64,000 bases of DNA from Escherichia coli (GTDB lineage Bacteria; Pseudomonadota; Gammaproteobacteria; Enterobacterales; Enterobacteriaceae). A program made the position numbers. Of the stretch, positions 56,201-59,200 are shown piece after piece; positions within the stretch are counted from its first letter, which is position 1, and each line of letters opens with the position of its first letter. Location of the stretch: the NCBI RefSeq assembly GCF_048403405.1, contig NZ_CP183129.1. The stretch is one strand, 5' to 3'.

Positions 56201-59200
56201 TCACCACAGAATATTACCGTTGCCACGCATATGACGCTGAAATAAATACCAGCTACCTTGCCTGAATGCCGGATGCGATGCTAGCGCATCTTATCCGGCC
56301 TACATTTATAGATCGGATAAAGTACTCGCGCCGCATCCGGCAATTTAACCCATTATCAGAACGAGTAATTTACGCCGACACCTGCATAATGGAATTTATC
56401 GCTGTCGCCTTCGTCGTGATCCTGCCACTCAAACGCGTATTCCAGCGAAACGGAAAGACCATTCTGGAAATCATAACCGTAAAATAACCCCACACGGTTA
56501 AAATCATGGCCTTCACGTTCAATATCATCCTGCCAGTCCCAGTTACTCCAGCGATCCAGCCCAATGCGCGTATACGGCGTCACCGAGTGGTTGCCGAGCG
56601 TCAGCGGCAAATAGGCACGAATTTCTTGCGTGGAAAACTCACCGTTATTGCGGCTGTCGTCCATATTGAAGCCGCGCTCGAGATAATAGTTCACTCGCAA
56701 AGCAACCGTTTCGTTGAAGGTATATTGCAGACCTGTTTCCGTTTCGACTCGGGTATCAGCGTAACCGGTCGTGTTCAGATCGTTGGCAAATTTATACATC
56801 GATAACCAACCGTTGAAACGTAAATCGTCAGTCAGTTTCACATCCCAGTCTGGCGCGATTTTCCAGCGCTGCATATTCGCCGTGTCTTTACCCGGTTCAT
56901 CAACGTAGTGATAACCATAATTACGAAAACCGCCGGTCAGGCCGAAACTGAAATCATCGCTTTCGAGGAACTGATAATGCACCTCCAGCTCCGGGCGATC
57001 AAACCATGTTCCACGTTTACCCGCGCTATAATCTACCGGCCCTTCCTGATAATAAGCCAGAGAAATTCTCCACGGCCCGTTGGCGGCATTAAAATAGACA
57101 GAAGGCTCCGCGAGCCCATCCATATCTTCGCCATAACCCTCGACGTTTTCTATTTCGTACATCGCGCCGATATTAAAGTGCCAGTCGTTCTTTTCCTCGG
57201 CCTGTGCGCAGGCCATTCCCGCACACATCACCAGTGCGGTACAGGGTAATAACTTTTTCATTATTGTTCCTTGTATTATCCTGGGGGAATGCCTTCCCCC
57301 TGTATTTAGCGAATTGCTATTTCCGTTTCTGCATCAAAGAAATGACATTTAGTCATATCAAAATGAATAGTGATATTTTCTCCTGCATGATAATCATTTA
57401 ACGCACCAGCACGGACCACTAACTCGTGCCCCCCAACCGTGGTGTAGAGCATAAATTCCGCACCGGTTAATTCTGCCACGCTAATTTTGGCGGAAATGTT
57501 ATTTTCCTCTTGCGCGTCCGGATGAATATCTTCCGGGCGTATTCCCATCACGATGGGCTTATGCAAACTTTCCTGTGTTTTCAGAACCGCTAATTTCTCT
57601 TCGGGAATGGTTAATTTAAGCGTTTCAGTAACGAATTTATCGCCATCGATCGTGCCGCGAATAAAATTCATCGCCGGTGATCCAATAAATCCGGCAACAA
57701 ACATATTCGCGGGTTGGTTATAAACCGTTTTCGGCGCACCTACTTGCTGAACAATCCCATCCTTCATAATCACAATCCGCGTCGCCATGGTCATCGCTTC
57801 GGTCTGATCGTGGGTCACGTAGATCATGGTGGTGTTCAGTTTCTGATGCAGCTTGCTGATCTCTGCGCGCATTTGTACGCGCAGCTTGGCATCAAGGTTA
57901 GAGAGCGGTTCATCCATTAAAAACACGCCCGCTTCGCGCACAATCGCCCGCCCGAGCGCCACACGCTGGCGTTGCCCGCCAGAAAGCGCCCCCGGCTTGC
58001 GTTTCAGGTACTCACGCAGGCCGAGAATTTGCGCCGCCCAGTTCACCCGCTCATCAATCACCTCTTTGGCGATTTTTTGCATCTTCAGGCCAAACGCCAT
58101 GTTGTCGTAGACCGTCATATGCGGATACAGCGCGTAGTTCTGGAACACCATCGCAATATTGCGCGCTTTGGCTGGAACGTCATTCATTCGTTTGCCGTCG
58201 ATCAACAGATCGCCGCCGCTGATCTCCTCAAGCCCGGCAATCATGCGCAGGGTGGTCGATTTACCGCAGCCTGACGGACCGACAAAGACAATGAACTCTT
58301 TATCGGCAATTTCCAGGTTGAAGTCCTTCACCACATGCACCTGGTTATCGTAGATTTTTTGAATATGTTGTAACGAAAGCTGAGCCATGTTGATTCCTTT
58401 GCTATACGTTTTGCCAGAAGGCCGATAACCGCGGCCAGGTCAGGGAGTCCGTTGAGGGCAACAATAATTGCGCCCCGGTTAAGCCCGCGCCGATCCCCAC
58501 CGAGCGCATACCGCTGGCGTTAATGGCGTCAATGCCCGCCTGCGCATCTTCAATACCGATACATGCCTGCGGCGGCACGCCCAGTCCGGCACAGGCGGCG
58601 AGAAAGATTTCCGGGTCCGGTTTCGAGTTTTTAAGTTGGGAAGCGTCCGCGCAGAAGGTGAAAAACTCGCGCAGCTCCAGCGCTGCTAAAATCGTCGGCG
58701 CATTCAGGGAGACAGAAGCCAGCCCTATAGGGATCTGCTGTGCGCAGAGATCTGTCAGCAAAGAGCGAATGCCGGGCAGCACAGCATTAACCGTCAGTTT
58801 GCGCAGTGAGTGGACGTAGAGCAGATTTTTGCGATACGCCAGTTGCGCCCTTTCCTGCGGGTTAAAGTCGCCCTCTTTGCCCCCGTGTTGCAGAATGCGT
58901 CGCAGAGACTCATCGCGGCTGATCCCTTTTAGGGATTCGTTAAACTGCGCATCAATGCTGATGCCAATTTCAGCGGCAATCTGCTGCCACGCCTTGAAAT
59001 GCAGATGCGCGGTATCGGTGATTACACCATCCAGATCGAAAATTACCCCTTGCAGTTTCATTCATCCTCCTGATGCGTGGTAGCGGTCCCATTGAAGGGC
59101 AAAATAAAATCACCCAAACAGAAAACAGATTCTTCAGCCACAGATATAAGCTGCCCGTTCAAACGCAGTGAAACGGGCGCAGAAGTTCGAATCGCAATAC

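What the first reader, a model, noticed from the sequence alone, without database searches (positions are those of the whole stretch)
57306..58388. Full-length ycjV ABC ATPase
The 360-aa ORF has complete Walker A, signature and C-terminal regulatory domain. To my recollection K-12 ycjV is annotated as a pseudogene, so the ycjMNOPQRSTUV sugar-utilisation operon may have an intact transporter ATPase in this strain.
Basis: partly seen in the sequence, partly recalled or inferred. Interest (0 to 1): 0.3.

Follow-up and report, generated by a model that had tools for sequence, protein, structure and literature searches.

The report
Intact wild-type ycjV sugar-transporter ATPase gene
This is the ordinary, intact form of the E. 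coli ycjV gene (the ATP-driven motor of a sugar importer); the laboratory strain K-12 is the exception because it lost one G from a run of six, and that defect is already annotated.

Summary
A 360-codon ORF lies at 57306..58388, but on the minus strand. It encodes a complete MalK/UgpC/MsmX-type ABC ATPase with all catalytic motifs and the C-terminal OB/TOBE regulatory domain.

The interpretation also holds. MG1655 annotates this locus as two pseudogene pieces, ycjV (b1318) and ymjB (b4524). I located the lesion: K-12 has GGGGG where the window has GGGGGG (window 57429..57434). This frameshifts after Gly320 and removes the last 40 residues, which is half of the TOBE domain.

The intact gene is the species norm, not a peculiarity of this strain:
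- The 6-G allele is an exact match in 4405 of 5426 complete E. coli genomes.
- The 5-G allele is exact in 370 genomes. In the 60 rows listed, these were almost all K-12 laboratory derivatives.
- About 430 genomes lack the whole ycj cluster.

Selection is strongly purifying: 24 of 25 substitutions against K-12 are synonymous (dN/dS about 0.01). Full-length E. coli YcjV has already been purified and shown to hydrolyse ATP (PMC7658222), and the K-12 locus is used as a "pseudogene" integration site.

Verdict: correct but already known, and of low interest. One small testable lead remains: whether the frameshift explains why K-12 cannot grow on kojibiose.

The parts
57306..58388 (-). ycjV coding sequence, 360 aa plus stop: nucleotide-binding (ATPase) subunit of the putative YcjNOP-YcjV carbohydrate ABC importer
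   Evidence: ORF list. Pfam ABC_tran + OB_MalK + TOBE_2. NCBIfam UgpC-subfamily model NF008653 scores 485 bits against a cut-off of 432. 100% DNA identity to genes annotated 'ABC transporter ATP-binding protein' WP_000057972.1 in strains Ecol_316 and 4621.
57429..57434 (-). Run of six G (six C on the + strand), codons Gly319-Gly320; K-12 has only five G here. This is the site of the K-12 frameshift.
   Evidence: Pairwise alignment with MG1655, run length and coordinates, multi-strain alignment.
57306..57419 (-). The 114 nt that K-12 annotates separately as the ymjB pseudogene fragment (VVRAGALNDY...EIAIR*); here it is in frame as the end of YcjV. K-12 loses the last 40 residues (321-360), i.e. 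the distal half of the TOBE domain.
   Evidence: MG1655 annotation; translation of the ymjB piece and of the lost tail; in the K-12 322-aa product TOBE_2 matches only profile positions 2-40 of 76 and drops to 20.6 bits, below the cut-off of 21.
57903..58328 (-). ABC ATPase core (aa 21-162), holding Walker A (58257..58280), signature LSGGQ (57972..57986) and Walker B (57906..57926); the H-loop follows at 57807..57815
   Evidence: Pfam PF00005 match; motif search.
57336..57683 (-). C-terminal regulatory domain: OB_MalK (aa 236-288) and TOBE_2 (aa 282-351)
   Evidence: Pfam PF17912 and PF08402; end-to-end alignment with the solved structure of B. subtilis MsmX 6yir, E = 1.2e-148.
58394..58399 (-). 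Shine-Dalgarno AAGGAA, 5 nt before the ycjV ATG, in the 13-nt spacer after the ycjU stop codon
   Evidence: Read directly from the sequence.
58402..59061 (-). ycjU/pgmB, beta-phosphoglucomutase (219 aa), immediately upstream in the operon
   Evidence: ORF; same length and position as in MG1655 and strain 4621.
59058..61325 (-). ycjT, kojibiose phosphorylase (755 aa)
   Evidence: ORF; annotation of the identical sequence in strain 4621.
61322..62377 (-). ycjS, D-glucoside 3-dehydrogenase (351 aa)
   Evidence: ORF; annotation in strain 4621.
62387..63175 (-). ycjR, 3-dehydro-D-guloside 4-epimerase (262 aa)
   Evidence: ORF, with the start taken from the annotation of the identical sequence in strain 4621.
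63193..64000 (-). ycjQ, 3' part only; the window ends inside the gene, so ycjM, ycjN, ycjO and ycjP are outside the window
   Evidence: Coordinate mapping onto strain 4621; ORF list.
56356..57261 (-). ompG, monomeric outer-membrane porin (301 aa), last gene of the operon
   Evidence: ORF; annotation.
55247..56245 (+). ycjW, LacI-type repressor of the operon (332 aa), convergent with ompG
   Evidence: ORF; annotation; repressor function shown in PMC6599011.

Best explanation
The ORF is the intact, ancestral allele of E. coli ycjV. It encodes the nucleotide-binding subunit of a type I (CUT1-class) carbohydrate ABC importer. The other parts of that importer are the lipoprotein substrate-binding protein YcjN and the permeases YcjO and YcjP. 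By analogy with MalK, UgpC and MsmX, two YcjV monomers should dock onto the EAA loops of YcjO and YcjP, sandwich two ATP molecules between Walker A and LSGGQ motifs, and drive inward transport by ATP hydrolysis. The C-terminal OB/TOBE domain should hold the dimer together and offer a regulatory surface. The gene is co-transcribed with the glycoside-catabolic genes ycjM and ycjQRSTU and with the porin gene ompG, under the repressor YcjW. K-12 differs by loss of one G from a G6 run. That shifts the frame after Gly320, adds Thr-Ser-stop and deletes the last 40 residues. Shown here: gene integrity, motifs, domain content, the exact lesion, allele frequencies and purifying selection. Taken from the literature: ATPase activity of purified YcjV, YcjW repression and operon co-regulation. 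Inferred: partnership with YcjNOP, the transport mechanism, the substrate and the functional consequence of the K-12 truncation.
For: A complete 360-aa ORF with all NBD motifs. Pfam ABC_tran + OB_MalK + TOBE_2. The UgpC-subfamily NCBIfam model scores above its cut-off. The protein aligns end to end with the solved MsmX structure 6yir (E = 1.2e-148) and with MalK structures. Synteny ycjT-ycjU-ycjV-ompG with convergent ycjW matches MG1655. The K-12 lesion is one G missing from GGGGGG. The 6-G allele is exact in 4405 genomes, the 5-G allele in 370 and a 7-G allele in 1. Of 25 substitutions against K-12, 24 are synonymous, giving dN/dS 0.011. In Ecol_316, YcjN has a lipobox (LISGC) and YcjO and YcjP each carry an EAA loop. 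All operon genes are annotated intact in Ecol_316 and in strain 4621, the 100%-identical proxy. Full-length E. coli YcjV was purified and is ATPase-active (PMC7658222). YcjW represses ycjMNOPQRSTUV-ompG (PMC6599011).
Against: No experiment read here shows that YcjV energises YcjNOP, and the substrate is unknown. YcjN showed no thermal shift with kojibiose, maltose or the other sugars screened (PMC11543891). The permease and binding-protein genes are outside the window, so their integrity in this exact genome rests on a proxy strain. One weak study reports YcjN-dependent, vanadate-sensitive uptake using strains listed as 'E. coli K-12' and BL21 (PMC13053599). If that result came from K-12, the frameshift may not abolish transport.
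Confidence: 0.88

Rival explanations
1. The pseudogene label in K-12 is an over-call. The 322-aa truncated K-12 product keeps the whole ATPase core and the first OB subdomain and still works, so the intact allele here makes no functional difference.
For: All catalytic motifs lie upstream of residue 194, and ABC_tran and OB_MalK score the same in the K-12 product. PMC13053599 reports ATP-dependent, YcjN-dependent uptake with a strain list that includes 'E. coli K-12'.
Against: The truncation removes 40 residues, which is profile positions 41-76 of the TOBE_2 domain. A half-deleted beta-barrel domain is likely to misfold (inference). In homologues this C-terminal domain is conserved end to end (MsmX alignment). 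The full-length form is kept in about 88% of E. coli genomes that carry the locus, under very strong purifying selection that includes the tail. MG1655 fails to grow on kojibiose even without the repressor. It is unclear which host was used for the transport assays in PMC13053599, and BL21 derivatives carry the intact 1083-bp gene (H18).
Confidence: 0.12
2. YcjV is dispensable because another MalK-like ATPase (MalK or UgpC) can energise YcjNOP, as happens with shared 'multitask' ATPases. Loss in K-12 would then be neutral, and presence here would be redundant.
For: Shared ATPases for CUT1 importers are well documented in Firmicutes and Actinobacteria (MsmX, MsmK; PMC7658222). E. coli carries the paralogues ugpC and malK, which cross-match ycjV at 72-74% DNA identity.
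Against: E. coli YcjV and MalK both failed to replace MsmX, and both lack the charged residues proposed as the multitask signature. ycjV is encoded inside its own operon and is under strong purifying selection (dN/dS 0.011), which argues that it is needed.
Confidence: 0.1
3. The one-base difference is a sequencing or assembly artefact, either in the window or in the K-12 reference, and has no biological meaning.
For: Homopolymer runs are error-prone. Three non-K-12 assemblies carry G5 and one carries G7, on unrelated SNP backgrounds, which may be assembly errors.
Against: The listed 5-G records are dominated by independently sequenced K-12 derivatives (MG1655, W3110, DH5alpha, DH1, C600, J53, NCM3722 and others), and 4405 genomes from all sources carry G6. 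The window is base-for-base identical to two independent complete genomes over the gene.
Confidence: 0.02

Closest known systems
E. coli K-12 ycjV'/ymjB' (b1318/b4524), annotated pseudogene
   Same: Same locus and same neighbours (ycjU upstream, ompG downstream, ycjW convergent). DNA identity is 97.6%, and the protein is identical over residues 1-320 except for A232S.
   Different: K-12 lacks one G of the G6 run, so its reading frame ends at 322 aa and the last 114 nt are annotated as a separate fragment, ymjB. The window's gene is uninterrupted at 360 aa.
Full-length E. coli YcjV as studied by Leisico et al. 2020 (WP_000057985.1; PMC7658222)
   Same: Same protein family member from E. coli. 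It was purified, shown to be ATPase-active, and described as clustered with the components of an ABC importer.
   Different: A different allele accession; the window encodes WP_000057972.1. I could not fetch WP_000057985.1 to count residue differences.
Bacillus subtilis MsmX (PDB 6yir), multitask ATPase of oligosaccharide importers
   Same: Closest solved structure. It aligns over all 360 residues (E = 1.2e-148; Leisico et al. report 64% identity), with the same NBD plus C-terminal regulatory-domain architecture.
   Different: MsmX is an orphan gene that serves several importers. ycjV is encoded inside a dedicated operon, could not substitute for MsmX in B. subtilis, and lacks the charged residues D77/R104/E110/K154 proposed to mark multitask ATPases.
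E. coli MalK (PDB 1q12, 2r6g and others) and UgpC
   Same: Same fold and motifs. MalK aligns over residues 1-353 (E = 5.5e-100), and the UgpC-subfamily model is the best NCBIfam match.
   Different: It is a paralogue, not MalK itself: the MalK equivalog model scores 431 bits, below its cut-off of 568. DNA similarity to ugpC is only about 72-74% over 416 nt. No evidence was found here for MalT- or EIIAGlc-type regulation.

Membership tests
ABC transporter nucleotide-binding domain (Pfam PF00005) | Walker A (GxxxxGK[ST]), Q-loop, LSGGQ signature, Walker B with catalytic Glu, D-loop and H-loop, in canonical order | tested here: met
   GPSGCGKS 37-44, VFQ 81-83, LSGGQ 135-139, VFLMDEP 155-161, SNLD 163-166, THD 192-194; PF00005 scores 110.5 bits against a cut-off of 25.
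MalK/UgpC/MsmX-type ATPases of CUT1 carbohydrate importers | C-terminal regulatory domain of about 120-130 residues (OB_MalK plus TOBE) following the NBD | tested here: met
   PF17912 at aa 236-288 (54.9 bits) and PF08402 at aa 282-351 (39.8 bits), both above cut-off; full-length alignment to MsmX 6yir and to MalK structures.
MalK/UgpC/MsmX-type ATPases of CUT1 carbohydrate importers | Score above a curated family cut-off | tested here: met
   NCBIfam NF008653 (UgpC subfamily model) scores 485.1 bits against a cut-off of 432. This is a subfamily-level model, so it does not assign the UgpC substrate.
MalK proper (maltose/maltodextrin ATPase, NCBIfam equivalog NF008233) | Score above the equivalog cut-off | tested here: not met
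   431.2 bits against a cut-off of 568. It is a paralogue and not MalK.
YcjNOP-YcjV importer of the E. coli ycj operon | Orthologous position: between ycjU (pgmB) and ompG, with ycjW convergent downstream | tested here: met
   Gene order in the window is the same as in MG1655, Ecol_316 and strain 4621.
YcjNOP-YcjV importer of the E. coli ycj operon | Cognate substrate-binding protein and two permeases with EAA coupling loops present and intact in the same operon | tested here: inconclusive
   The window ends inside ycjQ, so ycjN, ycjO and ycjP cannot be read here. In Ecol_316 (identical ycjV) they have no internal stops, and YcjO (aa 195-214) and YcjP (aa 174-193) carry EAA loops. In strain 4621 (identical over the last 10 kb of the window) they are annotated intact.
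YcjNOP-YcjV importer of the E. coli ycj operon | ATP hydrolysis by the protein, and energisation of transport through YcjOP | not testable with these tools
   ATPase activity of purified E. coli YcjV is reported in PMC7658222. Coupling to YcjNOP and the identity of the substrate have not been shown in the papers read here.

The most novel reading that the evidence does not exclude
The single-G deletion in ycjV is the reason K-12 cannot use the ycj operon's substrate. MG1655 does not grow on kojibiose as sole carbon source even when the repressor YcjW is deleted. Natural strains such as this one, with an intact YcjV and therefore a working YcjNOP-YcjV importer, would then be able to grow on kojibiose or a related alpha-1,2-glucoside, glucosylglycerate or guloside. 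If so, studying intact-allele strains instead of K-12 would reveal the operon's long-sought physiological substrate. A minor extension is that the G6 run is a recurrent on/off mutational site.
Probability: 0.2. Interest if true: 0.35.

Novelty: already known. Interest (0 to 1): 0.1.

Why it matters
It matters little for this strain, which simply carries the normal gene. The practical point concerns K-12, where almost all biochemical and physiological work on the ycj cluster has been done (kojibiose phosphorylase YcjT, glucosylglycerate phosphorylase YcjM, the YcjQRS guloside/glucoside enzymes, the repressor YcjW and the YcjN structure). In K-12 the transporter's ATPase gene is frameshifted. 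The papers I could read describe YcjV as the transporter's NBD without mentioning this. They also report that K-12 fails to grow on kojibiose and that no YcjN ligand was found. Anyone looking for the natural substrate of this pathway should use an intact-allele strain or a repaired K-12.

Tried and rejected
1. There is a real 1-bp length difference, 1082 against 1083 bp.

2. The idea that the intact allele is rare or strain-specific is rejected. Exact 70-mer counts give 4405 genomes with G6 and 370 with G5.

3. Identity with MalK or UgpC is rejected. The MalK equivalog model scores below its cut-off, and DNA cross-matches to ugpC are only about 72-74%.

4. I looked for an internal promoter or terminator between ycjU, ycjV and ompG. 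Promoter-like hits are no more frequent than in shuffled sequence. The only notable hairpin, in the ycjV-ompG spacer, has no T-tract on the operon strand.

5. I tried to read Mukherjee et al. 2018 (PMC5953851) to see whether it discusses the ycjV frameshift. The paper is not held.

6. I tried to map the window's last 10 kb onto Ecol_316 by exact match. This failed because Ecol_316 is identical only over ycjV. Strain 4621 was used instead as the 100%-identical proxy.

7. I did not run structure prediction or large protein-database searches. A solved structure reported as 64% identical and thousands of near-identical genomes already answer the question.

Full report
**Observation**

The window holds one uninterrupted ATG-to-TAA ORF of 360 codons at exactly 57306..58388. 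All canonical ABC ATPase motifs are present in order: Walker A GPSGCGKS (aa 37-44), Q-loop (VFQ 81-83), LSGGQ (135-139), Walker B VFLMDEP (155-161), D-loop SNLD (163-166) and H-loop THD (192-194).

Pfam finds ABC_tran (aa 21-162), OB_MalK (236-288) and TOBE_2 (282-351), all above their gathering thresholds. NCBIfam places the protein in the UgpC subfamily model (485 bits, cut-off 432). It scores below the MalK equivalog cut-off (431 against 568), so it is a MalK/UgpC paralogue rather than either protein.

The closest solved structure is B. subtilis MsmX (6yir). It aligns over the full length with E = 1.2e-148. MalK structures align over residues 1-353.

The gene has a Shine-Dalgarno sequence AAGGAA 5 nt before the ATG. 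It starts 13 nt after the ycjU stop and ends 44 nt before the ompG start.

**Context**

On the minus strand the window carries, in order:
- ycjQ (3' part only; the window ends inside it)
- ycjR
- ycjS
- ycjT (kojibiose phosphorylase)
- ycjU/pgmB
- ycjV
- ompG

The repressor gene ycjW is convergent on the plus strand. This is the gene order of MG1655. The binding-protein and permease genes ycjN, ycjO and ycjP lie beyond the window's end.

The window's ycjV is base-for-base identical to that of strain Ecol_316. The last 10 kb of the window are 100% identical to strain 4621. In both genomes RefSeq annotates the whole ycjMNOPQRSTU-ycjV-ompG set without any pseudogene flag. In Ecol_316 none of these genes has an internal stop, YcjN has a lipoprotein signal (LISGC), and YcjO and YcjP each carry the EAA coupling loop that ABC importer permeases use to dock their ATPase.

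**The K-12 lesion**

NC_000913.3 annotates the locus as two pseudogene features: ycjV (b1318, 969 bp) and ymjB (b4524, 114 bp). They overlap by one base, for 1082 bp in total.

A global alignment shows 25 substitutions and a single gap:
- The window has GGTTGGGGGGCAC, with six G at ORF nt 955-960 (window 57429..57434).
- MG1655 has GGTTGGGGGCAC, with five G.

The K-12 frame therefore reads ...TTVGG-TS-stop, giving 322 aa. The last 40 residues (HELVVRAGALNDYHAGENITIHFDMTKCHFFDAETEIAIR) are lost from the product, and 37 of them survive out of frame as ymjB. In the K-12 product TOBE_2 matches only the first 40 of 76 profile positions and falls below threshold. ABC_tran and OB_MalK are unaffected.

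It is not met.

**How common each state is**

I searched allele-specific 69-71-mers in which only an exact match reaches the 99% identity band. Among 5426 complete E. coli genomes:

| Allele or state | Genomes |
|---|---|
| G6, exact match | 4405 |
| G5, exact match | 370 |
| G7, exact match | 1 |
| Nearby SNPs prevent an exact call | about 220 |
| No match at all | about 430 |

The 60 listed G5 records are almost all K-12 laboratory derivatives: MG1655, W3110 lineage, DH5alpha, DH1, C600, J53, NCM3722 and others. BL21-type strains carry the intact 1083-bp gene (H18).

In the genomes with no match, pspE is followed directly by ycjX, so the whole ycjM-ycjW cluster is absent. The intact gene is thus the species norm and K-12 is the exception.

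**Selection**

Of the 25 substitutions between the window and frame-restored K-12, 24 are synonymous. This gives dS 0.107, dN 0.0012 and dN/dS 0.011. The one replacement, A232S, is private to K-12 among the six alleles compared. The gene has been under strong purifying selection, and the K-12 frameshift is recent.

**What it does**

By homology, YcjV is the ATPase dimer of a type I (CUT1-class) sugar importer made of YcjN (binding lipoprotein) and YcjO/YcjP (permeases). It is co-expressed with the catabolic enzymes and the porin OmpG.

From the literature:
- Purified full-length E. coli YcjV has ATPase activity. It accumulates in B. subtilis but cannot replace the shared ATPase MsmX (PMC7658222).
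- YcjW represses ycjMNOPQRSTUV-ompG, and kojibiose releases YcjW from DNA in vitro (PMC6599011).
- YcjN's ligand is still unknown. Kojibiose, maltose and the other sugars screened gave no thermal shift (PMC11543891).
- The K-12 locus is treated as a pseudogene in resequencing studies and is used as a neutral integration site.

The partnership with YcjNOP, the transport mechanism and the substrate are inferences from family membership and operon structure.

**Rival readings**

1. The truncated K-12 protein may still work. The catalytic core is untouched, but half of a conserved beta-domain is missing, the tail is under purifying selection, and MG1655 does not grow on kojibiose even without YcjW.
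2. Another MalK-like ATPase may substitute. This is plausible in principle, but E. coli YcjV and MalK lack the proposed multitask signature, and ycjV is strongly conserved.
3. The difference may be a sequencing artefact. The allele counts exclude this.

**Novelty and score**

The K-12 pseudogene status is in the reference annotation, the intact protein is in RefSeq (WP_000057972.1), and full-length YcjV has been studied biochemically. The finding is correct but already known, and it describes the default state of the species. I score interest at 0.1.

One residual point is worth recording. The papers on the ycj operon that I could read treat YcjV as the transporter's NBD without noting that it is frameshifted in the K-12 strains they used. 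They also report a failure to grow on kojibiose and a failure to find a YcjN ligand. Whether the frameshift explains the growth failure is an easy experiment. I put it at about 20%, because YcjN did not bind kojibiose and other explanations remain open (wrong substrate, poor OmpG expression).

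Noticed in passing
window 57429..57434; loci L004, L005, L006 (ycjV at 586..1667 in each): The same G6-to-G5 deletion, flagged 'frameshifted' by RefSeq, occurs in three non-K-12 genomes (95-3192, 2014C-3051, 08-00022). 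Their ycjV alleles differ from K-12 and from each other by 5-23 substitutions. One genome (13TMH22) has G7. This is either a recurrent slippage site or homopolymer errors in long-read assemblies.
   Followed up: partly
L007 (NZ_AP041809.1, strain JNE21-003) 8581..10411; also hits H198, H200, H201: About 8% of complete E. coli genomes lack the entire ycjM-ycjW cluster (about 13.7 kb). In these genomes pspE is directly followed by ycjX, so the cluster behaves as a presence/absence island between two core genes.
   Followed up: partly
window 57283..57300: There is a perfect 7-bp-stem hairpin (GGGGGAAGGCATTCCCCC on the operon strand) in the 44-nt spacer between the ycjV stop and the ompG start. 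It has no T-run on the operon strand, so it is not an obvious intrinsic terminator in that direction. It may be an mRNA stability or processing element, or may modulate ompG expression.
   Followed up: no
ycjV codon 232 (window 57693..57695): K-12 carries a private non-synonymous change, Ala232 to Ser, absent from the five other alleles compared. It is the only amino-acid difference from the window's protein upstream of the frameshift.
   Followed up: partly
L003 (Ecol_316) against L001 (MG1655), whole ycj operon: Protein divergence along the operon is very uneven: YcjT has 30 and YcjM 18 amino-acid differences, while YcjO, YcjP, YcjQ and YcjR have 1-2 each. This suggests a recombination mosaic or different constraints on the two phosphorylases. 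Ecol_316 is identical to the window over ycjV but not over the full last 10 kb.
   Followed up: no
ycjV ORF nt about 672-691 (window about 57698..57717); records NZ_CM132660.1 and NZ_CP162161.1: Two unrelated assemblies have breakpoints close together inside ycjV. A C600 assembly matches the window only from 64000 down to 57698. Strain STS63-2-E retains only ORF nt 672-1083, annotated as a 'TOBE domain-containing protein'. The cause (IS element, deletion or rearrangement) was not examined.
   Followed up: no
window 54000..64000: This 10-kb stretch is only about 96.2% identical to K-12 and 95.2-95.5% to several other sampled genomes. Just 9 of 5432 matching records are at least 99% identical, so the window comes from a sparsely sampled E. 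coli lineage. The closest genomes are strain 4621 (blood isolate, Houston) and, over ycjV, Ecol_316.
   Followed up: no
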